A stretch of DNA of 64,000 nt, taken from the NCBI GenBank assembly GCA_902566515.1, contig CACFIX010000001.1:32220-96219 (forward strand). Direction: 5' to 3'. Each line of letters starts with the position of its first letter. The stretch's first letter is position 1. Below are positions 11,004-22,114 of this stretch, piece by piece. The notes beneath the pieces are model-generated. The model saw only the letters and a list, made by a program, of their open reading frames with translations, did no database searches and was not told the DNA's origin. Position numbers and translations under genes: made by a program. The stretch is from an uncultured Candidatus Actinomarina sp. Lineage in GTDB: Bacteria > Actinomycetota > Acidimicrobiia > Actinomarinales > Actinomarinaceae.

Positions 11004-11635
11004 TATGATTTTCTTAAATAAAAATTAGTGAAAGAGTAAATGACCATAGTTATTCCTAAAAACATCAATATATAAATATTACTTATTTCTTGATTTACAC
11101 CTAACCAGAGGGGTGCGATTAAAATTGCGAAACCAATATAAATAGGAACAATCAATGTAAATTGCACAAATCTATTACTGAAAGAAGTAAAAATTTGGAA
11201 AAATAAATTTATCATGATTGTGTTCAAGCAAAAAAATAAAACTGATAAACATATATGAAATAAAGATGAATTTAACGAAGTGTTTGTAAAACCTGAAAAG
11301 AGAATTAACAAAATAATTATTTGTGGATAAAAAATTATTAATTCTGAGGATGTCTTGCTATAAAAATAATCTACTTTCTTTATAGAACCAAAATTTAGTT
11401 CTTTTATTAATTTCTGCTCATTTAGGGGGTTTCTGATTGAAAAAAGTGTTGTAAATATAATTAAAAATAAAAGCTCAACAATCAAAAATATATCATTTTC
11501 AACACGAAATCTATTTTCTGACAAAATGGGAAAAACTATTATTAAAACGCACATTGTGGGAGTAATTAGAAATAAAGATGTATTATTTCTAAATTCCATA
11601 TTTAGTTCTTTTTTTATAATGTATTTTTTAATCAT
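11003..11635 (-). CDS. Putative CcmB-like ABC-2 permease (divergent)
   Basis: 210 aa, about 6 TM, located between ccmA and ccmC; canonical CcmB motif not recognised. Confidence 0.4.
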   Translation of the reverse strand: MIKKYIIKKELNMEFRNNTSLFLITPTMCVLIIVFPILSENRFRVENDIFLIVELLFLIIFTTLFSIRNPLNEQKLIKELNFGSIKKVDYFYSKTSSELIIFYPQIIILLILFSGFTNTSLNSSLFHICLSVLFFCLNTIMINLFFQIFTSFSNRFVQFTLIVPIYIGFAILIAPLWLGVNQEISNIYILMFLGITMVIYSFTNFYLRKS

Positions 11636-12221
11636 TTAAATTAAATGACCTTTCAATTGACGTAAATGCACCAATACTTTCTTGACTAGACAAAATGGAA
11701 GTATTACCTTCCTTTTCTCTTTTTTTAATAAGATTTAGTAATAGGTCAACTCCGTTCTCATCAAGATATACTCTGGGCTCATCAATACAAAGCACCTTTG
11801 GGTTTTTAATGTCTGCAATTGCAATTTCACTTCTCTTAACCATTCCACTTGAAAAATCTCTAACTAGATCACTCTTAAAACTTTCTAGTTCATATTTATT
11901 AAGAACATTCGATATCATGTTTTCATTAATATTGTCGTTAAATAAAAAATATTTAATATTTTCCAGCAAAGAAAGTTCGGGCATTAGAGATGGGGAAGAG
12001 CCAATTTCCATTAATGAAGTGTCTTTTCTGCGTATATTAGAGTTAAAAGTGTTTCCTATAAAATTATTACTTATACACATGATTAGCGTAGTTTTCCCCG
12101 AACCATTTTTTCCTGTAATTTCATAATTTTTTGAAAAGTTTAAAGAAATTTCTAGATTTTTAATTACAAGTTGATTGCCGTAACCGAGCGTTAGATTGTC
12201 AGATTCAAAAAATAAACTCAT
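11628..12221 (-). CDS. ccmA: ABC transporter ATP-binding protein CcmA
   Basis: Walker A GKNGSGKTTL, signature FSSGMVKR, Walker B LCIDEP; about 200 aa as for CcmA. Confidence 0.7.
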   Translation of the reverse strand: MSLFFESDNLTLGYGNQLVIKNLEISLNFSKNYEITGKNGSGKTTLIMCISNNFIGNTFNSNIRRKDTSLMEIGSSPSLMPELSLLENIKYFLFNDNINENMISNVLNKYELESFKSDLVRDFSSGMVKRSEIAIADIKNPKVLCIDEPRVYLDENGVDLLLNLIKKREKEGNTSILSSQESIGAFTSIERSFNLND

Positions 12222-13732
12222 AATACTATTGTATTAGCTTCTGATTTTCTTAGGTAACGCAAAATTATTTGAAGTTCACTTAAGAAATGTTGAAAAGAAT
12301 ATTCCTCATTCAAATTATTGATTTCAAATAAATTATTAGAATCGTTAAAACTTTCTACAAAAATTTGTTTTCCTTGAATCTTAATTCCATGATTTGATAG
12401 CTTTGAATTAAGGTCTTCATTATTTTGTAGTATTTTGTTAAATAAATCTGAAAATTCTTGGTGTTCCACAAGTATGGATAACAATAATTTGTATTTTTGA
12501 GCATTTTCAAAGTCTAAATTTTTAGAGTAATTCTTAATTAATTTTTTTATTTCTGAAATATTTATATCTAGATTCTCAAAATAATTTTTAAACTCTTCAT
12601 TTTTTTGGATTAAGTAATTTTCTAAACTGAAATTTTCTATACAAGCGCATTGAGAATTTAATAATAATGAAATATCACATATCTCTTTTCTTGCATTATT
12701 TTTCTTGCACTTTATTAATTGAAATATTTCTTCTATAGACCTTTTATAATTAACTGCTTTTGAGTAACTTAGAAAAGGTCCAAATTTGTAAAGTGTATTT
12801 TTTGTATTTTCAATTTTAGAAATTTCAAGTCTAAGTTTATTATTTTTTAACTTAACCCAATAAATATTTTTTGGTACTTTACCGCTTCTATTGTAAATTG
12901 GTTTGAAAAAATTAATTATTCTATGCTCTGCAATGAGTGCTATTAATTCATTATCCAACTCAATAAAATTTAAAGTATTTGAATTAGTTACTATTTTATT
13001 TGACTTATAACTTCTCGCATAACTTAGGTGTGATCCAATTCTATTTCTTAGATTGTTTGATTTTCCTACATATTGAATTTTGTTATTTTGCAAAAAACAA
13101 TAAATACCAATTGAATTAGGTATATCTTCATAGGAAAATTTAACTTTTAATTCATCATCAACTTCGTTTAAAAAAGAATTTAAATGTGAAATATTTTTTT
13201 TATTTGTAATTCTTTCATCACTAGCAAGATTGTTAAATACTTCATAAGTTGTTAGAACATCGGCTTTTGCGTTATGGTCATTCTTATTAGTTGTCTTAAA
13301 GTAACGACTTAATGTAGATAATTTATGATTTTTAACTTTATTCCTCAACAGAGCTCTTGATAACTTTAACGTATCAATATTTTCGTTAGCAATATTTTGA
13401 AACCCATTATTTATTAGGTCATAATTTAAAAAAGATAAATCGAATTTTAAATTATGACCTATAACAACAGAATCACTTATAAAAGTTTTAATATTTTCAA
13501 TTTCCTGATCAATTGTGGGGGAGGAATTGACATGCCATTGATATATCCCTGTTAAATTTGAAATGAATAATGGAATTTCAATTTCTGGATTAAATTTTGA
13601 ATGATATTCTTCTAGAACTTCATTGTTGTAAACTTTCAGCATATAAAGTTCAATAATTTTGTCAGTATTAGCTTTTATTCCAGTAGTTTCAATATCTAAA
13701 ACAACAATATTTTTATTCTTTATAAATTCCAA
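12218..13732 (-). CDS. DnaQ-family 3'-5' exonuclease fused to a GIY-YIG nuclease domain, with an uncharacterised C-terminal region
   Basis: N-terminal VLDIETTG (DEDD exo I motif); mid GIYCF...YVGKSNNLRNRIGSH...ELDNELIALIAEHRIINFFKPIYN (GIY-YIG with Arg/His/Glu/Asn); about 220 aa C-terminal region of unknown fold. Confidence 0.65.
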   Translation of the reverse strand: MEFIKNKNIVVLDIETTGIKANTDKIIELYMLKVYNNEVLEEYHSKFNPEIEIPLFISNLTGIYQWHVNSSPTIDQEIENIKTFISDSVVIGHNLKFDLSFLNYDLINNGFQNIANENIDTLKLSRALLRNKVKNHKLSTLSRYFKTTNKNDHNAKADVLTTYEVFNNLASDERITNKKNISHLNSFLNEVDDELKVKFSYEDIPNSIGIYCFLQNNKIQYVGKSNNLRNRIGSHLSYARSYKSNKIVTNSNTLNFIELDNELIALIAEHRIINFFKPIYNRSGKVPKNIYWVKLKNNKLRLEISKIENTKNTLYKFGPFLSYSKAVNYKRSIEEIFQLIKCKKNNARKEICDISLLLNSQCACIENFSLENYLIQKNEEFKNYFENLDINISEIKKLIKNYSKNLDFENAQKYKLLLSILVEHQEFSDLFNKILQNNEDLNSKLSNHGIKIQGKQIFVESFNDSNNLFEINNLNEEYSFQHFLSELQIILRYLRKSEANTIVL

Positions 13733-14524
13733 TTATTTTGTCAGCTCCCACATTGCTATAGCTGCTGCTGTAGATGCATTTATTGAGTCAACATTATTTG
13801 TTGATCTAATAAATAGGGAAGTGTAGTTAGAGTTAAACCAATTATCAGATATACCATATTGTTCAGCACCAACTACCAATGCAAAATTCTGATTAGGAAT
13901 AAAACCTTCAAGACTCTCATCTCCCTCAGGGTCTAATAACAGTACTTGGTAATCATTAGCCTCCAATAATGAAATTATTTCATCATTACTTCCACTAGAT
14001 ATATTTGAATTAAATAAGTGACCTATTGAAGCTCTTATAACATTAGGATTATATACATCAGTTATTTCATCAGATAATAATATATTATTTATACCAAATG
14101 ATTTTGAGGTTCTAATCATGGTTCCTAAATTTCCAGGTTTCTCAATTTGGTCAGGTATAAGAATAGGGCCAGAAATTGTTTTGGGTAACTTGTTTTTAAT
14201 TACATCAAATATAGAAATAATTCCGTCTGGTTTATCACGATAAGATATTTCTTTAAATACTTTAATTGCTACTTGTACAATTCGAATATTTTTATTTTCA
14301 AATTTTCTAATCAGTTTTTCATTATTGTCACCTACAAATAATTCTGGACAAATATATAAAGTGTCTACATTTAAGCTAGATTCGATTAAGTTTAAGTTTT
14401 CCCGGTATCCTTCAGCAATAGATTTATTTTCAGATTTTCTATTTCTATTTTTTTTGAGAGAAATTAAAAATTTATATTCTGGATTATTTAAAGATTCAAT
14501 ATATTTATTTATTGAATTGCTCAT
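13733..14524 (-). CDS. TrmH/SpoU-family RNA 2'-O-methyltransferase (RlmB-like)
   Basis: SpoU methylase motifs ...LLLDPEGDESLEGF...ALVVGAEQYGIS... Confidence 0.65.
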   Translation of the reverse strand: MSNSINKYIESLNNPEYKFLISLKKNRNRKSENKSIAEGYRENLNLIESSLNVDTLYICPELFVGDNNEKLIRKFENKNIRIVQVAIKVFKEISYRDKPDGIISIFDVIKNKLPKTISGPILIPDQIEKPGNLGTMIRTSKSFGINNILLSDEITDVYNPNVIRASIGHLFNSNISSGSNDEIISLLEANDYQVLLLDPEGDESLEGFIPNQNFALVVGAEQYGISDNWFNSNYTSLFIRSTNNVDSINASTAAAIAMWELTK

Positions 14525-15113
14525 AATGTACTAGTTTTTTCTTTAATTTTGGATTTGATTTTTTGTCAACTTCAATATTATCTTCTATCCCTGCAGTAAT
14601 CATTCCAATAATTTTATATGTATTTGGAATACTTAACATTTTATGTATGCCATCCCTATCTGTATTATGTAATCCCATAAATCCACTTTTGAATTCTTGC
14701 TCTTCAATTAATAACATACAATTCATCATTGCTGCACCTGCATCTACATACCAATAAGGAATATCCCAATCTTTTGAACTTACGCTTTTAATTTTGTCAG
14801 AACTCTCGTACCTCTCATGGTAAGCATTCTCATTTAATAAGATAAAAAATAAACAAATGGAATTTGATATCCATTTTGGCTTTCCTTTTTTGATATACTC
14901 TAGCTCATTAAAGTGTTTAGCAATATTCTTAATGTTTTGTTTATTAGTTACTTGTAAAATTTCTATCCCACGCGAAAACCCTGCAGTTGGGATTTTTACG
15001 CTAAATTTTGAGATATTTTTTAATTTTTTAGGGTCAAATTCGCTTTTTTTATAATTTCTTACAACTTTTCTATTTGATAAAAGGTTTTCTAGGTAAGTGA
15101 AATCTTCACTCAT
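14505..15113 (-). CDS. Nitroreductase-family protein
   Basis: N-terminal LLSNRKVVRNYKKSEF resembles the nitroreductase RRSxRxF motif; about 200 aa. Confidence 0.55.
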   Translation of the reverse strand: MSEDFTYLENLLSNRKVVRNYKKSEFDPKKLKNISKFSVKIPTAGFSRGIEILQVTNKQNIKNIAKHFNELEYIKKGKPKWISNSICLFFILLNENAYHERYESSDKIKSVSSKDWDIPYWYVDAGAAMMNCMLLIEEQEFKSGFMGLHNTDRDGIHKMLSIPNTYKIIGMITAGIEDNIEVDKKSNPKLKKKLVHYEQFNK

Positions 15114-16173
15114 TTAAATTAGATAATTCTTCAACTACTGAATCACCAACTTCTTCAGTAGACATTCCCATTTTCCCAGCTGAAAGAGAATCTAATTTAA
15201 TTGCCGTGTTAATGATTGCTTTTTCAATATCGGATGCATATTTTTCTTCACCTAATTCTTTGACCATCATTGCACCAGCACCTATACAAGCAAGAGGATT
15301 GATGATATTTTTACCTGTATACTTTGGTGCAGATCCTCCTATAGGTTCAAACATTGATGTTCCTGAAGGATTGATATTACCGCCTGCAGCGATTCCCATT
15401 CCTCCCTGAATCATTGCACCTAAATCAGTAATGATGTCTCCAAACATATTATCTGTAACAATGACATCAAACCATTCTGGATTTTTAACCATCCACATAC
15501 AAATTGCATCTACATGTCCATAATCAGTTTCAATTTCAGGATAATCTTTTGCAACATCATAAAAAATCCTTTCCCATAAATCATGTGCATAAGTTAGTAC
15601 ATTTGTTTTTGCACAGAGAGTAATTTTTTTTCTATTGTTGTTCTTTGTATATTCAAAAGCGTATTTTATGCATCGGTAAATTGCATGATATGAATTTATT
15701 GATTCTTGAGTTGCTATTTCATTTTCAGTTCCATAATGAATATAGCCTCCAGCTCCAGCATATAATCCTTCTGTATTTTCTCTGACAACAATAAAATCAA
15801 TATCTCCAGGCTCTTTATTGGCAAGTGGGGTTTCTACACCGGGATATAAAATGACTGGTCTGAGATTAATATATTGGTCAAACTCTTTCCTAAGTTTGAG
15901 AAGAATACCTTGCTCTAATATTCCAGGTTTTACATCTGGGTGGCCAATTGCGCCGAGAAGTACCGCATCAGAATCTTGAAATTGTTTAATATCATTATCT
16001 GTAACTAAATCTCCAGTTTTTAAATATCTATCTCCTCCAAGATCATTCTGAGAGAAATTGAATTGAGTATCGTAATAAGATGAGGTTTTACTTAGTACTT
16101 TAACTGCTTGATTGACTACTTCAGGACCTGTACCATCTCCAGGGAGAAGTGAGATATTAAAAGTTTTACTCAT
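15106..16173 (-). CDS. leuB: 3-isopropylmalate dehydrogenase
   Basis: IDH/IMDH family motifs ([23 protein letters not shown]); adjacent to leuA. Confidence 0.8.
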
Positions 16174-17660
16174 TTATTTAATGCATTTAGGAATGATTCA
16201 ACTGAACCTTGAACTACATCTGTAGATACAGCACGTCCTTGTTTCATCAAATGTCCATCATTTACTATTGTAACGATTTCTGCAGTTGCATCTGAACCTT
16301 TAGTAATACTTTCTACACGGTAATCAATTAATATTGCATCAGAATCTAGTATCTTCTTTACCGCAGTAAATGCTGCATGAATCATTCCGTCACCGGTTGC
16401 CTCTTCTGTCACTTCATTTTCGCCTACCTTAAGTGTTACTTTTGCAGATGCATATTCATCCTTACTATTTACGGATACAGATATTAACTTTGTTGAATTT
16501 TCTTTGTTTTCAACTTGTCCAACAATAGCTCTTAATTCATTTTCAACTATCTCACCCTTTCTATCTGCAATTTTCTTAAAAGTATCAAATGCATTACTAA
16601 ATGAATCATCATCAAGGCTTATATTTAAATTGTCCAGAGCATCTTTAAATCCAGCGCGACCAGAATGTTTACCTAAAATTATTTTTGCTTCTTGGCCTAC
16701 AGAGTCTGGGGACATTATTTCGTAAGTCATAGTATTTCTTAAATAACCATGTTGATGAATTCCAGACTCGTGACTGAATGCATTTTTTCCAACAACCGCT
16801 TTATTGTATTGAACAGGATATCCTGTTAATTTAGAAACTAACCTAGAAGTTTCAAAAATTTCAGTAGTTTCTGCTTTTATATCCACTCCAAACTGATCTT
16901 GTCTTGTTTTTATTGCCATAATGATTTCTTCTGTTGAAGTATTACCAGCTCTTTCCCCGATACCATTAATTGCACCTTCTATTTGTCTTGCTCCTGCGGT
17001 TATTGCCGTAAGAGAGTTAGCAACTGCTAATCCAAGATCGTTGTGACAATGAGTAGAAATAATGACATCTTCATTACCGCCCTTAACATCTTCATATACT
17101 GATTGAAGAAGGTCTAGATAATCCTTTGGAGTTGCATAGCCTACTGTGTCAGGAACATTTATAGTTGTAGCGCCCTCTTCTACAGCAATTTTTAACACTT
17201 CTATTAAGAAGTCTTTATCTGTTCTTGTTGCATCTTGTGCAGAAAACTCAACATCTTGACATAATTTTTTTGCATACTTTACAGATTCTCTTGTGTCTTT
17301 AAGAATGTCTTCCTTTGTTTTTCGTAGCATATGTTCCATATGAATTTCTGATGTAGAGGTAAAGACATGAATCCTTGAATCTTTAGCAACTTTGATTGCT
17401 TCCCAAGCTTGTTCAATATCATCTGGATGACATCTTGCAAGAGATGCAATTTTAGAATTTTTAATATTTTTTGCAATTAAATTAACACCTTCCCAATCAC
17501 CAGGAGAGGATGCTGCAAACCCCGCTTCAATTACATCAACTTTAAGCTTTTCTAACTGCTGTGCTATTAATAGTTTTTCTGACGGAGTTAAAGCAATACC
17601 CGGACTTTGCTCTCCATCTCGAAGCGTAGTATCAAATATTACAAGTCTATCTTCACTCAT
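16170..17660 (-). CDS. leuA: 2-isopropylmalate synthase (citramalate synthase not excluded)
   Basis: [20 protein letters not shown]-like TIM barrel plus C-terminal LeuA regulatory domain. Confidence 0.75.
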
Positions 17661-18673
17661 TTATCTTTTTTAACATCTTTAGCATCCAAAAAAGGCATCA
17701 TATTTCTTAAATTTTTTCCAATTGCTTCAATCTGATGAGCTGAAGCCTCTTCTCGCTTTTGATTTAGAAATGGTGCACCTTCTCTTGCTTGTGACATCCA
17801 CTCTTTTGCAAATGCACCAGATTGTATTTCTTCTAGTACTTTTTTCATTTCATTTTTTGTTTCACTTGTAATTATTCTTGAACCACGTGAAAAGTCACCG
17901 TATTCAGCTGTGTCTGAAATTGAATGTCTCATCCACTCAAAACCACCTTCATACATTAAGTCAACAATTAATTTAACTTCATGAAGAGTTTCAAAGTAGG
18001 CACTCTCAGGCTGGTATCCAGCTTCTACAAGTGTTTCGAAACCATTTCTAATCAATTCTGTTAACCCACCGCAAAGAACTACTTGTTCACCAAATAAATC
18101 AGTTTCTGTTTCTTCCTTAAAAGTAGTGTTTAGAATACCAGCACGTCCACCACCGATAGCTGAAGCGTATGAAAGAGCAATTTCATGTGTGTTTCCACTT
18201 GAGTCTTTTTCGACAGCTACTAAGCACGGCATCCCACTTCCTTCTTCATAAGTTCTTCGTAATAAATGACCTGGACCTTTCGGCGCAACCATACCAACAG
18301 ACAAATCTTCTCTTGGAATGATCTCATTAAAATGAATATTGAATCCATGAGCAAATAGTAAAGTTGCACCTTCTTTTATATTGTCTGCAATCTCAGAGTT
18401 ATAAACATCTGCCATAACCTGATCTGGAAGAAGTAACATTACAACGTCTGCACCGGACGCAGCATTTGCTAAGTTTTCAACTTTTAAACCCATTTCCTGT
18501 GCTCTTGAGAATGATTCTGAATCCTCTCTAAGGCCAACAGTAACGTCTACACCTGAATCATGTAAATTTAATGCATGTGCATGACCTTGGCTACCAAATC
18601 CAATAACAGTAACTTTTAAATCTTTAATTAGATTTTTATCAATTGATGAATCGTATATAATTTTTGTTTCCAT
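17657..18673 (-). CDS. ilvC: Ketol-acid reductoisomerase
   Basis: [25 protein letters not shown]-binding motif; 338 aa class I KARI. Confidence 0.9.
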
Positions 18674-18681
18674 ATCTCTCC

Positions 18682-19155
18682 TTACAAATTCGTTTGAATA
18701 GCAATCCTTCCACCTCTAACCATTTCAATTATTCCAAACGGTTTCATTAAATCCTCAAATTTATTTAATTCTTTTGATGAACCTGTAAGTTCAAAAACTG
18801 CATAATCTTGGCCTACATCTACCGAATTAGCTCCTGAGAGGCTAGCTTTTTCAATTACAGATGTTTGGCTATCTTTATTTATTGACACTTTTAATAATAA
18901 AACTTCAGTCTCTATTGTCATCTCTGGATCTAGCTCAACAATTTTTATAACATTAACTAATTTATTGAGCTGTTTTTTTACTTGTTCTACTGCATCAAGT
19001 TCAGTAACGATCGTCATTTTTGATCTTCCTTCTATGTGAGTAGGTCCTACAGACAAAGAATTTATATTAAAACCTCGTCTTGAAATAGTAGATGCAACTC
19101 TAGCTAGTACACCAGGTTTATCTTCAACCAAAACTGATAAAATTCTTTCGCTCAT
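18682..19155 (-). CDS. ilvN: Acetolactate synthase small (regulatory) subunit
   Basis: ACT domain [33 protein letters not shown]. Confidence 0.85.
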
Positions 19156-20864
19156 AAATTTTTCAAATCTTCTTCATTTAAAATTATTTGGTCGTTGCTA
19201 CCACCAGCTGGGACCATAGGAAATACCATATCTTCAGGATCTACTACACAGTCAATTAACACAGGTTTATCATTTATTTTTAACATTTCCGAAAAGACAT
19301 TTTTTACTTCTGATTTTTTAGTCATTCTTAAACCTACAGCACCCATTGACTCAGCTAGCTTTACATAATCAGGAACTACATGACCTAATTCAGATGCAGA
19401 GAATTTACTATTGTAAAATATTTTTTGCCACTGTCTAACCATTCCATGATTACCGTTGTTAAATACTACAATTTTGACTGGTATATTTTCTGTGGATGCA
19501 GTAATCAATTCCTGACAAGTCATTTGAAAACAACCATCTCCATCTAAAGCTAGTACTAATTTTTCAGGATATGCAGTTTTGGCACCAATAGCTGCAGGTA
19601 ATGAATACCCCATAGTTCCAAGACCACCTGAATTTAGCCAAGTATTTGGTTCAGTAAAATTCCAATGTTGTGAAATCCACATTTGGTGTTGTCCGACACC
19701 TGATACAACAATTGCCTCTTCTTCAGTTAAATTTTGAAGCTCCTCTAGAACAAACGGAACTTTCAAAGGACCATTTTCGTTTTGATTATAAGAAAGTGGA
19801 AATTCATTTTTCATACTGTTTAATTCATTTATCCAATTTTCAGTATTAAGTTTTATATCTCCAAGAGCATTAATAAGGCCTAATATTACGCTCTTTGCAT
19901 CACCAACTATAGGCACTTGAGCTTCTCTTACTTTTCCAATTTCAGCAGGATCAATATCAGCATGAATTACTTTTGCATTCTGTGCAAAAAATGAAGGATT
20001 AGCAGTTACTCTATCATCAAATCGAACACCTATAGCAATAAGTAGATCTGATTTTTGTATAGAAGTTGTAGCTGTATAGTTTCCATGCATCCCAGGCATT
20101 TCTAAACATAACTCATGACCGTCGGGGAAAGCACCTCTGCCCATTAATGTTGTAACAACAGGAATGTTAAATTTAGTTGCTAAGTTAAAAAGTTCTTGGT
20201 TTGCTTTGGAGTGAATAATTCCACCACCAACATAAAGTATTGGTTTATTTGAATTTTTAATTAAGCTGGCTGCTTGCTGAATCATTTTTGGATTTGGTTC
20301 TAATGTAGGCTTGTATCCAGGTAAATCAAGTGGACCTGGTTCAACCCAATCAGATTTTTGATTTAAGATATCCTTTGGAATATCAATTAAAACAGGACCA
20401 GGCCTCCCTGAAGTTGCAATATACTTTGCCTCTTTTAACACTTGGGGTATTTCAGAAGCATTCGTTATTAAATAGTTGTGTTTTGTAGCAGCCATAGAAA
20501 GCCCCACAGTGTATGCCTCTTGAAAAGCATCATTACCAATTGCTTCAGAAGCTACTTGACCAGTGATAGCTAACAAAGGAGTGGAATCCATCAATGCGTT
20601 TGCTAAAGGAGTTATAAGATTTGTAGCTCCAGGTCCAGAAGTGGCGATTACAACACCAAGTTCGCCAGTTGATTGTGCATATCCCTCAGCCATGTGGCCA
20701 GCACCTTGTTCGTGTCTTGCAAGAATATGTCGTATAGGACTATCGTATAACGGATCATATGCAGGTAAGATTGCACCACCAGGCACTCCAAAAACTGTAG
20801 ATACCTTAAGGTACTCTAATCCTCTAATAACTAATTCCGCGCCTGTAAGTTGTTCTTTACTCAT
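19152..20864 (-). CDS. ilvB: Acetolactate synthase large subunit
   Basis: ThDP enzyme, 570 aa, GDG...NN ThDP-binding motif (DGDGCFQMTCQEL...NNG). Confidence 0.9.
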   Translation of the reverse strand: MSKEQLTGAELVIRGLEYLKVSTVFGVPGGAILPAYDPLYDSPIRHILARHEQGAGHMAEGYAQSTGELGVVIATSGPGATNLITPLANALMDSTPLLAITGQVASEAIGNDAFQEAYTVGLSMAATKHNYLITNASEIPQVLKEAKYIATSGRPGPVLIDIPKDILNQKSDWVEPGPLDLPGYKPTLEPNPKMIQQAASLIKNSNKPILYVGGGIIHSKANQELFNLATKFNIPVVTTLMGRGAFPDGHELCLEMPGMHGNYTATTSIQKSDLLIAIGVRFDDRVTANPSFFAQNAKVIHADIDPAEIGKVREAQVPIVGDAKSVILGLINALGDIKLNTENWINELNSMKNEFPLSYNQNENGPLKVPFVLEELQNLTEEEAIVVSGVGQHQMWISQHWNFTEPNTWLNSGGLGTMGYSLPAAIGAKTAYPEKLVLALDGDGCFQMTCQELITASTENIPVKIVVFNNGNHGMVRQWQKIFYNSKFSASELGHVVPDYVKLAESMGAVGLRMTKKSEVKNVFSEMLKINDKPVLIDCVVDPEDMVFPMVPAGGSNDQIILNEEDLKNL

Positions 20865-20890
20865 AAAAACTAAGTTACTCCATCTTTATC

Positions 20891-20916
20891 AAAAAAAAAC
20901 CTCCCGATTTGGGAGG
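20891..20916 (-). terminator. Intrinsic terminator of the ilvB leader (attenuator)
   Basis: Minus strand CCUCCCAAAUCGGGAGG followed by U9, preceded directly by a second hairpin GCGCUCAU-N9-AUGAGCGC (20917..20939). Confidence 0.6.
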
Positions 20917-20939
20917 CGCTCATCACAGCAAAATGAGCG

Positions 20940-20990
20940 CTAAATAAGTAATAGCACCAATACTGAAATGAATACAGATAAATTTTTCAT
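20940..20990 (-). CDS. ilvB leader peptide MKNLSVFISVLVLLLI (16 aa)
   Basis: ATG..TAG minus-strand ORF read codon by codon; 10 of 16 residues are Leu/Val/Ile; stop codon abuts the hairpins and terminator upstream of ilvB. Confidence 0.55.
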   Translation of the reverse strand: MKNLSVFISVLVLLLI

Positions 20991-21019
20991 TAAAATAACT
21001 ATAGTAAAATCAAAAAAAA

Positions 21020-22114
21020 ATGAAAGATATAAATCTTAATAATTTCATAATAGAAAATTCTCTTGATATTCCAGTTGATGTTTCTATTGGAGTCGCATCA
21101 GTACCTACAGGCTTAAATTATTCTGATCAGATCAAAAAAGTAAAAGAGCAAAATCAACATGCGAACATGAAATTTACATTTTCTGATCCAGACTATTCAG
21201 GTCTTGTTGATAAATTTGATTGGGCAAATTCTGCCCTAATTTTTGCATATGATTACAAAAACAAGGTTAATTATTCAAATTTAACAAATAAAGGATACGG
21301 TCAGATAGCAAGATTTGCACAACAAGATTTTTATTTACCATTAAAAAAAATAATCAATCAATTTGAAGAAATATTTAATGACTTAAGTATCAAGCATCAA
21401 ACATTTATTGACAATCCAAAACACTACGATAGATCTTTTTTTGAAAAGTCTGGGATGGGATGGCAGGGTAAAAGTACAATGATGCTTAGTCCTGGTATTG
21501 GTCCATGGCAACTACTCGGAACAATTTATGTTGAAACTAATTTTCAGTCTACAGATGAAAGAACTTACTCATGTGGAGAATGCAACTTATGTCAGATTTC
21601 CTGTCCAACAGGTGCATTGGATAATGAATACAAACTAGATTCAAATAAATGTATATCGTATTGGCTTCAGTCGCCTGAAATAATTCCGTACGATATGAGG
21701 GAATCAATTGGAAATAGATTCTATGGTTGTGATGAATGTTTGATATCATGTCCACCTGGTCAAAGTAATAAAATTAAAATTAAAACAAAAAATGAATTTG
21801 AAGTAAACCTAGAAGAGTTACTTGAAACAAATGATGAAGTGTTACTCAAAAATTATTATTGGTTTTATATTCCTAAAAGAAATGTTGATTATTTAAAAAG
21901 AAATGCAGTAATTGCATTAACAAATAATCCTAATAAAAGTACTTTTAATTTTTTTTTGAAATTGTACACAAATTCTTCAGATTTTTTGAAGATTTATATT
22001 TTGTGGGGATTTTGGAAGTTAGGAAAAATTTTTGAAATAAGTAGTTTGCTTGATAATGAAGTAAATGAAAATTTAAAACTTGAATATGAAAAATTAAAAA
22101 GTATGACTTCATAG
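21020..22114 (+). CDS. queG: Epoxyqueuosine reductase
   Basis: [12 protein letters not shown]..., two 4Fe-4S motifs [12 protein letters not shown] and [24 protein letters not shown]; C-terminal HEAT-like region. Confidence 0.8.

What the first reader, a model, noticed from the sequence alone, without database searches (positions are those of the whole stretch)
20891..20990. Branched-chain-amino-acid leader peptide and terminator attenuator in front of ilvB
The minus strand upstream of ilvB encodes a 16-codon ORF, MKNLSVFISVLVLLLI-stop, in which 10 of 16 residues are Leu, Val or Ile. Its UAG stop abuts a GC-rich hairpin (GCGCUCAU-N9-AUGAGCGC). Immediately 3' of that lies a canonical intrinsic terminator (CCUCCC-AAAUC-GGGAGG + U9), about 25 nt before the ilvB start. 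This is the layout of ribosome-mediated transcription attenuation known for ilvBN and ilvGMEDA leaders. It would place the whole downstream co-directional string (ilvBNC-leuAB and beyond) under Leu/Val/Ile control. I could not identify a convincing antiterminator pairing by eye: the two hairpins are adjacent and not obviously mutually exclusive, so the exact switching mechanism is open.
Basis: seen in the sequence. Interest (0 to 1): 0.7.

Follow-up and report, generated by a model that had tools for sequence, protein, structure and literature searches.

The report
Leader-peptide attenuator before ilvB operon
This is a short leucine/valine/isoleucine-rich leader ORF followed by a hairpin and a terminator in front of the branched-chain amino acid operon of a marine Candidatus Actinomarina, and it belongs to a known actinobacterial attenuator family, but neither it nor its validated M. 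tuberculosis relative shows the expected overlap between antiterminator and terminator.

Summary
On the minus strand there is a 16-codon ORF (20990-20940, MKNLSVFISVLVLLLI-UAG). Next comes an 8-bp GC hairpin that starts at the G of UAG, then a CCUCCC/GGGAGG terminator with U9. The ilvB start lies 26 nt further on.

The same layout sits upstream of ilvB in about 150 Acidimicrobiia loci. A covariance model built on it hits once per locus, and 12 of 13 base pairs covary. Codons S-5 to S-2 are Leu/Val/Ile in 68-72 of 74 loci. The rare GUA codon makes up 68% of leader Val codons against 2% in ilvB. The stop is UAG in 67 of 74. A -10 box lies 6-9 nt before the start codon, which points to a leaderless mRNA.

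The M. tuberculosis ilvB1 leader was validated experimentally in 2026 and has the same architecture.

The switch itself stays open. No conserved antiterminator pairing exists, and the terminator is predicted to fold whatever the ribosome position, in M. tuberculosis too. In the window the two hairpins share only two nucleotides. Hairpin 1 most likely acts as a ribosome-controlled antiterminator through this junction overlap and its direct adjacency to the terminator.

The parts
20998..21003 (-). -10-like promoter box TATAGT, 7 nt upstream of the leader ATG. It implies a leaderless or near-leaderless leader mRNA. The -35 region would lie inside the first codons of the divergent queG-like gene (start 21020, + strand).
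   Evidence: Sequence. ACTATAGTTA is conserved in all Actinomarina variants. A [TC]A...T box lies 6-9 nt before an in-frame ATG/GTG in 55 of 74 relatives, against 1-2 of 74 in the other two frames. S. lividans ilvL is transcribed leaderless (PMC8079986). By the published coordinates the M. tuberculosis TSS lies about 1 nt before the uORF ATG.
20940..20990 (-). Leader ORF (ilvL-type): MKNLSVFISVLVLLLI plus UAG.
   Evidence: Length is 16 codons in all six distinct Actinomarina variants, and changes are conservative or synonymous.
20943..20963 (-). Regulatory run of seven consecutive Val/Leu/Ile codons (GUA UUG GUG CUA UUA CUU AUU, codons 10-16), ending at the stop codon.
   Evidence: Across the family, positions S-5 to S-2 are BCAA in 68-72 of 74 loci.
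20916..20940 (-). Hairpin 1. 5' arm GCGCUCAU 20940-20933 (its first G is the third base of UAG), loop 20932-20924, 3' arm AUGAGCGC 20923-20916. Proposed ribosome-controlled antiterminator.
   Evidence: Conserved with covariation: 6 of 6 modelled pairs show compensatory changes. The 5' arm starts at stop-codon base 2 or 3 in 61 of 74 loci.
20899..20917 (-). Intrinsic terminator stem-loop GCCUCCC-AAAUC-GGGAGGU (7 bp). G20917 and C20916 are shared with hairpin 1.
20891..20899 (-). U9 tract of the terminator. The first U can pair with G20917.
20919..20972 (-). Predicted ribosome-free alternative. Leader codons 7-13 (core GGUGCU) pair with the hairpin-1 region (core AGCGCU). This resembles a 1:2 structure and leaves the full 7-bp terminator free.
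   Evidence: Minimum-free-energy (MFE) structure in all five Actinomarina variants folded. Prediction only. It is not conserved in high-GC relatives (CDS:H5 z about 0).
15106..20864 (-). Controlled operon core: ilvB 19152-20864, ilvN 18682-19155, ilvC 17657-18673, leuA 16170-17660, leuB 15106-16173. Four further overlapping or abutting genes follow, down to 11628.
   Evidence: No other strong terminator on this strand.

Best explanation
This is a ribosome-mediated (leader-peptide) transcription attenuator of the actinobacterial ilvB/ilvL type. It controls ilvBNC-leuAB in a Candidatus Actinomarina genome.

Proposed sequence of events:
1. Transcription starts at or next to the leader AUG, so the mRNA is leaderless. 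A 70S ribosome translates the 16-codon ORF.
2. When charged Leu, Val and Ile tRNAs are plentiful, the ribosome runs to UAG. There it covers the 5' arm of hairpin 1, which begins inside the stop codon. Hairpin 1 cannot form, the full 7-bp terminator closes against the U9 tract, and transcription ends about 100 nt from the start.
3. When a branched-chain amino acid (BCAA) is scarce, the ribosome stalls in the run of seven BCAA codons, at least 3-4 codons before the stop, and hairpin 1 folds.
4. Folded hairpin 1 takes the terminator's two bottom nucleotides (G20917, C20916) and sits directly against the terminator base. This weakens closure of the base pairs next to the U tract, so more polymerases read through into ilvB.

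What is shown:
- The elements themselves.
- Their conservation and covariation.
- The coding constraints on the ORF.
- The geometry of the elements.

What is inferred:
- The direction of the response, taken from the validated M. tuberculosis homologue.
- The way hairpin 1 interferes with termination.
For: - **Elements and genes:**
- **One motif copy per locus, always upstream of ilvB:** 79 of 81 genome sources and 72 of 80 independent metagenome loci. There are no off-target hits in 0.9 Mb and only one hit in the window.
- **Covariation:** 95% of cells are paired against 81.5% in shuffles and 41-61% when the partners are slid. 12 of 13 pairs show compensatory changes.
- **Coding constraints:**
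  - U at codon position 2 in four successive codons in at least 90% of sequences.
  - BCAA at S-5 to S-2 in 68-72 of 74 loci, but at S-1 in only 12 of 74.
  - GUA makes up 68% of leader Val codons against 2.2% in ilvB.
  - A/U-ending BCAA codons are 48% against 9% (p = 1e-12).
  - The stop codon is UAG in 67 of 74.
- **Leaderless geometry:**
- **Experimental precedent:**
  - M. tuberculosis ilvB1: the leader gives a terminated transcript of about 120 nt, the uORF is translated, and LVVI->AAAA abolishes induction (PMC13236596).
  - C. glutamicum and the Corynebacterium ilvB-II motif (PMC10272879).
  - S. lividans ilvL, MRTRILVLGKRVG, transcribed leaderless.
- **Same layout in M. tuberculosis:** the leader fetched here has LVVI, hairpin 1, a 1-nt spacer and a terminator. 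The Acidimicrobiia model matches it at 21 bits, E = 8e-5.
- **Window energetics:**
  - Terminator alone: 7 bp, -12.2 kcal/mol; 5 bp, -6.9 kcal/mol.
  - The three ways of sharing the junction are nearly isoenergetic (-20.1, -19.7, -19.2 kcal/mol).
Against: - No extensive mutually exclusive antiterminator exists.
- In equilibrium folding with the ribosome footprint masked, mean terminator pair probability stays at or above 0.94 across the 74 loci in every ribosome state. In the window it is 0.85 when stalled and 0.99 at the stop.
- The 2-nt overlap can be resolved by branch migration.
- 44 of 74 relatives show no overlap at all.
- Complementarity between hairpin-1 arms and terminator arms is lower than in shuffles.
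- In S. coelicolor, mutating the ILVL codons was reported to have no effect (Craster 1999, as cited in PMC1262725).
- There is no transcript or expression data for this organism.
Confidence: 0.85

Rival explanations
1. It is the same attenuator, but the switch is purely positional rather than based on alternative base pairing. Folded hairpin 1 is held 0-3 nt from the terminator base, with a stalled ribosome just behind it. In that position it sterically prevents the terminator's lowest pairs from closing inside the RNA exit channel of RNA polymerase. When the ribosome melts hairpin 1, a flexible single strand is left and termination proceeds.
For: - No conserved alternative pairing exists, and cross-complementarity between the two hairpins is depleted.
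- The terminator is predicted to fold in all ribosome states, including in the validated M. tuberculosis leader.
- The effective spacer between the hairpins is 0-3 nt in 64 of 74 loci, and 1-2 nt in six Actinomycetes leaders. By contrast the distance from terminator to ilvB varies from 13 to 152 nt.
- The start of hairpin 1 is fixed at stop-codon base 2-3, and the BCAA block is fixed 4-5 nt before it.
- The conserved UAG followed mostly by C is consistent with a need for a long dwell on the stop codon (the context effect is from general knowledge).
Against: - I know of no experimental precedent for a non-overlapping adjacent hairpin acting as an antiterminator.
- 10 of 74 loci have spacers of 4-6 nt.
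- Secondary-structure prediction cannot address sterics.
- Small overlaps of 1-3 nt exist in 30 of 74 loci and could be enough on their own.
Confidence: 0.3
2. The small ORF is incidental. The hairpin and terminator form a constitutive or protein/Rho/ligand-controlled 5'-UTR element, such as a riboswitch or a site for an RNA-binding protein, with no ribosome sensing.
For: - AT-rich DNA yields hydrophobic small ORFs easily. The mean L/V/I fraction of small ORFs in the window is 0.28, and 7 of 549 reach 0.6.
- The S. coelicolor codon-replacement result was negative.
Against: - ORF frame, start, stop position, U-at-position-2 periodicity and rare-codon choice are conserved from 30% to 70% GC genomes.
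- The -10 box tracks the ORF frame.
- No Rfam family matches: no T-box or ppGpp riboswitch hit.
- Only about 50 nt of structured RNA is present, too little for a known aptamer.
- In M. tuberculosis the codons are required.
Confidence: 0.04
3. The ORF encodes a functional hydrophobic micropeptide (a membrane peptide or toxin) with its own terminator, and ilvB is transcribed independently.
For: The peptide is strongly hydrophobic and is followed by a good terminator.
Against: - Peptide length varies (9-25 residues) and the N-terminal sequence is not conserved across relatives. Only the codon class at S-5 to S-2 is conserved.
- The ORF is always immediately upstream of ilvB and on the same strand.
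- Only 26 nt separate the U tract from the ilvB ATG, and no conserved promoter lies there.
Confidence: 0.03

Closest known systems
Mycobacterium tuberculosis ilvB1NC leader attenuator (Eckartt et al. 2026, PMC13236596)
   Same: - It lies upstream of ilvB(N)C in Actinomycetota.
- The uORF is essentially leaderless.
- A block of four BCAA codons includes GUA and sits a few nt before a GC-rich hairpin.
- That hairpin is followed after 0-2 nt by a C-rich/G-rich terminator and a U tract.
- My folding shows both hairpins coexisting in every ribosome state, as in the window.
- The Acidimicrobiia model matches it.
   Different: - In M. tuberculosis the uORF continues six codons through the 5' arm of hairpin 1 and stops (UGA) in the loop. 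In the window and in Acidimicrobiia the stop (UAG) sits at the base of the 5' arm.
- The window has seven BCAA codons running up to the stop, and the peptide is 16 residues against 19.
- The M. tuberculosis terminator has a larger, structured loop.
Streptomyces coelicolor/lividans ilvL (MRTRILVLGKRVG; Craster 1999, Seliverstov 2005, PMC8079986)
   Same: - A leaderless short ORF with an ILVL block, followed by hairpins and a U-rich stretch, upstream of ilvBHC.
- High-GC Acidimicrobiia relatives of the window encode M..ILVLG/ILVLP, with the same AUC CUC GUA CU(C/U) codons in L004 and L005.
   Different: - I did not fetch the Streptomyces sequence, so its structure was not compared here.
- Mutation of the ILVL codons was reported to have no effect.
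Corynebacterium ilvB-II motif / C. glutamicum ilvBNC leader (Morbach 2000; Narunsky 2023, PMC10272879)
   Same: - Two stem-loops, P1 and the terminator P2.
- A BCAA-rich uORF of 15-17 codons translated without a ribosome binding site.
- It acts as an OFF switch in rich medium.
   Different: - There the uORF spans most of P1.
- An antiterminator is drawn between the P1 loop and the 3' side of lower P2. No such loop-to-terminator complementarity is conserved here (HL:T3 z = -0.1).
- That leader lies about 150 nt before ilvB.
E. coli ilvBN (ivbL) and ilvGMEDA (ilvL) leaders
   Same: The logic is the same: a leader peptide rich in Val/Leu(/Ile) and an intrinsic terminator before the operon.
   Different: - The enterobacterial leaders have a Shine-Dalgarno-led 32-codon ORF and extensive, clearly overlapping 2:3 and 3:4 helices (established knowledge).
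- No sequence or Rfam similarity was found.

Membership tests
Leader-peptide (ribosome-mediated) transcription attenuators, classical trp/ilv type | A short ORF upstream of a biosynthetic operon, enriched in codons for the operon's end products. | tested here: met
   10 of 16 residues are L/V/I, with 7 consecutive. Across the family 74.5% of the last six codons are BCAA, against 22.5% in IlvB.
Leader-peptide (ribosome-mediated) transcription attenuators, classical trp/ilv type | The ORF is conserved as a coding unit in relatives. | tested here: met
   Start, frame and stop are kept in about 150 loci. There is U-at-position-2 periodicity and a rare-codon bias.
Leader-peptide (ribosome-mediated) transcription attenuators, classical trp/ilv type | An intrinsic terminator lies between the leader ORF and the first structural gene. 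| tested here: met
   A 7-bp stem plus U9. The stem is conserved with covariation.
Leader-peptide (ribosome-mediated) transcription attenuators, classical trp/ilv type | An antiterminator helix that shares a substantial strand with the terminator, so the two are mutually exclusive. | tested here: not met
   Only 2 nt are shared in the window. 44 of 74 relatives share none. No complementarity exceeds shuffles. The terminator folds in all ribosome states.
Leader-peptide (ribosome-mediated) transcription attenuators, classical trp/ilv type | A short terminated transcript, and read-through that rises on starvation for the amino acid. | not testable with these tools
   No transcript data for this uncultured organism. 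It has been shown for the M. tuberculosis homologue.
Actinobacterial ilvB leader (ilvL / M. tuberculosis ilvB1 attenuator) | It lies immediately upstream of ilvB-ilvN/H-ilvC in Actinomycetota. | tested here: met
   Gene identities. The closest genomes are Candidatus Actinomarina and Acidimicrobiia.
Actinobacterial ilvB leader (ilvL / M. tuberculosis ilvB1 attenuator) | Leaderless leader ORF: a -10 box a few nt before the start codon and no Shine-Dalgarno sequence. | tested here: met
   TATAGT lies 7 nt before the ATG. 55 of 74 relatives show this, against 1-2 of 74 in control frames. This is sequence evidence only; no TSS has been mapped.
Actinobacterial ilvB leader (ilvL / M. tuberculosis ilvB1 attenuator) | The BCAA block lies 2-7 nt before a GC-rich hairpin that directly abuts the terminator. 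| tested here: met
   Window; family; M. tuberculosis, M. xenopi, Nocardia and others.
Actinobacterial ilvB leader (ilvL / M. tuberculosis ilvB1 attenuator) | Sequence/structure similarity to a validated member. | tested here: met
   Model R1, built without mycobacteria, matches the M. tuberculosis leader at 21.3 bits (E = 8e-5) and M. xenopi at 17.4 bits, in the right place. The match is weak, and the E-values are rough and computed over only 4.3 kb of sequence.
Actinobacterial ilvB leader (ilvL / M. tuberculosis ilvB1 attenuator) | Use of rare BCAA codons (GUA, CUU) as sensors. | tested here: inconclusive
   The bias is strong in high-GC relatives. In this 30% GC genome A/U-ending codons are the norm, so the criterion carries no information for the window itself.
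Rfam-curated ilvB-associated or amino-acid leader RNAs (T-box, ppGpp riboswitch, Leu/Phe/Thr/His/Trp leaders) | A match to the family covariance model at the gathering score. | tested here: not met
   The best hit is Phe_leader at 20 bits against a gathering score of 55, and it matches only through the terminator. Nothing was found in 12 relatives or over the M. tuberculosis leader.

The most novel reading that the evidence does not exclude
In this family the antiterminator does not compete with the terminator for bases. The family includes the window's element, about 150 Acidimicrobiia loci and the validated M. tuberculosis ilvB1 leader.

A hairpin is either allowed to fold or melted by the ribosome. 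When folded it blocks termination simply by sitting 0-3 nt from the terminator base, possibly with the stalled ribosome tethered right behind it. The lowest terminator pairs then cannot close in the polymerase exit channel.

That would be a steric, position-based attenuation switch rather than the textbook switch based on alternative helices.
Probability: 0.25. Interest if true: 0.7.

Novelty: new member of a known kind. Interest (0 to 1): 0.38.

Why it matters
It shows that a streamlined, uncultured marine actinobacterium with very few regulators still controls branched-chain amino acid synthesis with a leaderless leader peptide. This device is shared with Mycobacterium, Streptomyces and Corynebacterium, so it is probably ancient in the phylum.

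It yields a specific covariance model for a family that Rfam did not match in any sequence scanned here.

It also sharpens an open mechanistic question. The hairpin called the antiterminator and the terminator are adjacent but essentially non-overlapping, even in the validated M. tuberculosis element. How ribosome position is relayed to termination is therefore not explained by the textbook model, and it can be tested with simple spacer and hairpin mutants.

Tried and rejected
- **Rfam.** Scans of the window region, 12 relatives and six Actinomycetes leaders found no family.
- **Search for an antiterminator.**
  - With the terminator 5' arm masked, the 3' arm pairs mostly with the leader coding region. 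That complementarity equals the composition-shuffled expectation (z = 0.07), and it would give the wrong regulatory logic.
  - A pseudoknot between the loop of hairpin 1 and the terminator 3' arm looked attractive in one subclade (L022: CUCUCGC against GCGAGGG). It is not general (z = -0.1) and is absent from the window.
  - Pairing of the hairpin-1 3' arm with the terminator 5' arm is depleted relative to shuffles (z = +1.1).
- **Ribosome-occlusion folding**, done as in the M. tuberculosis paper, gives no switch.
- **Frameshift or UAG read-through** carrying the ribosome over the terminator. Frame 0 stays open for at least 10 codons after UAG in the five distinct Actinomarina sequences checked. 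This is not significant, there is no slippery site, and there is no link to BCAA supply.
- **The GGGAGG arm as a Shine-Dalgarno site for ilvB.** It lies at least 21 nt from the start codon, so this is rejected.
- **A second copy of the motif in the window.** None was found.
- **A promoter between the terminator and ilvB.** Nothing is conserved there.

Full report
**Observation**

On the minus strand the sequence reads: TATAGT, 7 nt, then AUG AAA AAU UUA UCU GUA UUC AUU UCA GUA UUG GUG CUA UUA CUU AUU UAG. It continues CGCUCAU UUUGCUGUG AUGAGCGC CUCCC AAAUC GGGAG G U9, and after 25 more nt reaches the AUG of ilvB.

- The ORF runs 20990-20940.
- Hairpin 1 runs 20940-20916.
- The terminator and its U tract run 20917-20891. 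The terminator scan reports a 7-bp stem with 5 GC pairs.
- The intergenic RNA folds with a z-score of -4.9.

One correction is needed. With the 7-bp terminator they share G20917 and C20916.

Within the window, 7 of 549 small ATG-ORFs reach 60% Leu/Val/Ile. Only this one is followed by a strong terminator.

**Context**

The downstream genes are ilvB, ilvN, ilvC, leuA and leuB. They are followed by a weak nitroreductase-like ORF, a TrmH-family methyltransferase, a DEDD exonuclease and an ABC ATPase. All of these overlap or abut one another. No other strong terminator is predicted on that strand.

A QueG-like gene starts divergently at 21020, only 29 nt from the leader ATG.

The window has about 30% GC. 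The nearest genomes are Candidatus Actinomarina, with IlvB 84-85% identical, and then other Acidimicrobiia at 64% or below. A metagenome contig, LUMT01000008.1, is 99% identical.

**Conservation**

Upstream of ilvB in nearly every related locus the same layout recurs:
- A short ORF ends in a run of Leu/Val/Ile codons.
- Its stop codon overlaps the base of a GC-rich hairpin.
- A C-rich/G-rich terminator with a U tract follows.

A covariance model was built from 71 sequences.
- It finds exactly one hit per locus, always just upstream of ilvB on the same strand.
- It hits 79 of 81 genome sources and 72 of 80 independent metagenome loci. Most of the misses lack upstream DNA.
- It finds a single hit in the 64-kb window.

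Both helices covary. 95% of cells are paired, against 81.5% in shuffles and 41-61% when the partners are slid. 12 of 13 pairs have compensatory changes.

**Coding signature of the ORF**

- Four successive codons have U at position 2 in at least 90% of sequences.
- Positions S-5 to S-2, counted back from the stop, are Leu/Val/Ile in 68-72 of 74 loci. S-1 is Leu/Val/Ile in only 12 of 74 and is mostly Thr.
- In the high-GC relatives GUA supplies 68% of leader Val codons against 2.2% in ilvB.
- A/U-ending Leu/Val/Ile codons are 48% against 9% (p = 1e-12).
- The stop codon is UAG in 67 of 74 loci.
- A -10-like box lies 6-9 nt before an in-frame ATG/GTG in 55 of 74 loci, against 1 and 2 of 74 in the other frames. 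The leader mRNA is therefore leaderless or nearly so.
- All six distinct Actinomarina variants encode 16 codons, and the strain at 99% identity differs by one conservative and one synonymous change.

**What is known about this kind of element**

- Candidate leader peptides with terminators upstream of actinobacterial ilvB genes were described in 2005, with the mode of regulation called unclear (PMC1262725).
- S. lividans ilvL (MRTRILVLGKRVG) is transcribed leaderless.
- The Corynebacterium ilvB-II motif has P1, a terminator P2 and a uORF.
- In 2026 the M. tuberculosis ilvB1 leader was shown to give a terminated transcript of about 120 nt. Its uORF is translated, and it loses induction when LVVI is changed to AAAA (PMC13236596).

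I fetched the M. tuberculosis locus. The uORF is MDKAGKPGMLVVIGRRVGA, and by the published coordinates the TSS lies about 1 nt before its ATG. After the LVVI block come hairpin 1 (CGCGUUGGUGC...GCACCAACGCG), one spacer nucleotide, and the terminator CCCUCG...CGAGGG with U6.

The Acidimicrobiia model matches this leader at 21 bits, E = 8e-5. Five more Actinomycetes leaders have the same layout.

The stop codon position varies across the phylum. It sits at the base of hairpin 1 in Acidimicrobiia and in L165. It sits inside the 5' arm or the loop in Mycobacterium, Nocardia and Pseudonocardiales.

No Rfam family covers any of these sequences.

**Mechanism: geometry**

A ribosome with its A site on a codon covers about 9 nt beyond that codon (general knowledge; the M. 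tuberculosis paper uses a footprint of 13 nt to either side).
- Stalled at S-5 or S-4, it leaves hairpin 1 intact.
- On the stop codon, it covers the whole 5' arm. That arm begins at stop base 2-3 in 61 of 74 loci.

So the folding state of hairpin 1 reports the ribosome's position, as helix 2:3 does in the trp attenuator.

**Mechanism: the missing link to the terminator**

What is lacking is the usual link from this hairpin to the terminator.
- No pair of segments is more complementary than shuffled controls. Complementarity between hairpin-1 arms and terminator arms is depleted.
- With the ribosome footprint masked, mean terminator pair probability stays at or above 0.94 in every state across the 74 loci. 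The M. tuberculosis terminator also persists in every state.
- What is conserved is adjacency. The effective spacer is 0-3 nt in 64 of 74 loci.
- Small overlaps of 1-3 nt occur in 30 of 74 loci.

In the window the overlap is 2 nt. The terminator alone is worth -12.2 kcal/mol at 7 bp and -6.9 at 5 bp. The three ways of dividing the junction are nearly isoenergetic.

Without a ribosome, the leader codons (core GGUGCU) pair with the hairpin-1 5' arm (core AGCGCU) in all the Actinomarina variants folded. This leaves the full terminator free and resembles a 1:2 structure.

I therefore commit to hairpin 1 as the ribosome-controlled antiterminator. It would act through competition at the junction and through its position against the terminator base. 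I treat a purely steric mechanism as an open and more novel variant.

**Rivals**

- A chance ORF with a ribosome-independent element is contradicted by the coding constraints and by the M. tuberculosis codon mutants.
- A functional micropeptide gene is contradicted by the variable length and N-terminal sequence, and by the strict linkage to ilvB.

**Verdict**

The element is a new member, in Candidatus Actinomarina and Acidimicrobiia, of the known actinobacterial ilvB leader-peptide attenuator family.

The element itself is of modest interest. The family-wide lack of an overlapping antiterminator, shared with a validated member, is the part worth following up.

Noticed in passing
window 20875-20883 (minus strand): A minimal ORF, AUG GAG UAA, lies between the U tract and ilvB. 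Its GGAG is the only Shine-Dalgarno-like sequence, 13 nt before the ilvB AUG. It is present in the 99% identical strain (L081) but not in the other Actinomarina variants.
   Followed up: partly
window 20889-20939 (minus strand); L001, L003, L082, L083: The reading frame of the leader stays open for at least 10 codons past UAG in the five distinct Actinomarina sequences checked. [quoted passage not shown] Stop-codon read-through would therefore carry a ribosome over the terminator. The openness is not statistically significant.
   Followed up: partly
window 11628-15113 (minus strand): Four genes unrelated to branched-chain amino acid synthesis follow leuB, with overlapping or abutting ends and no predicted terminator. 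They are a nitroreductase-like ORF, a TrmH-family RNA methyltransferase, a DEDD exonuclease with a UvrC-like region, and an ABC ATPase. They may be co-transcribed with ilvBNC-leuAB.
   Followed up: partly
window 20998-21022: The leader's -10 box lies 16 nt from the start codon of the divergent QueG-like gene (21020, + strand). The leader's -35 region must therefore lie inside that gene, and the two divergent promoters overlap. The same arrangement is seen in L001, L003, L082 and L083.
   Followed up: no
L065 about 2813-2900; L079 2522-2609; L070: These are variants.
- In L065 the leader ORF lacks the stop at the hairpin base and reads on through the terminator. Its model score is only 24 bits.
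- In L079 the motif sits about 400 nt upstream of ilvB.
- L070 has no motif at all.
   Followed up: no
L161 535-660 (M. tuberculosis ilvB1 leader): The published model calls the antiterminator and terminator mutually exclusive. In my folding the two hairpins are separated by one nucleotide and both form in every ribosome state. The sequence CUCGU occurs in both the uORF and the terminator 5' arm, and GCGAG occurs in both the hairpin-1 loop and the terminator 3' arm.
   Followed up: partly
Family alignment A1/A2 (terminator columns): The terminator stem sequence is unusually constant from 30% to 70% GC genomes. The 5' arm is CCUCC-like, resembling the anti-Shine-Dalgarno sequence, and the 3' arm is GGAGG-like. 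Two C-G pairs are the same in 77 of 78 distinct sequences. No reason for this was found.
   Followed up: partly
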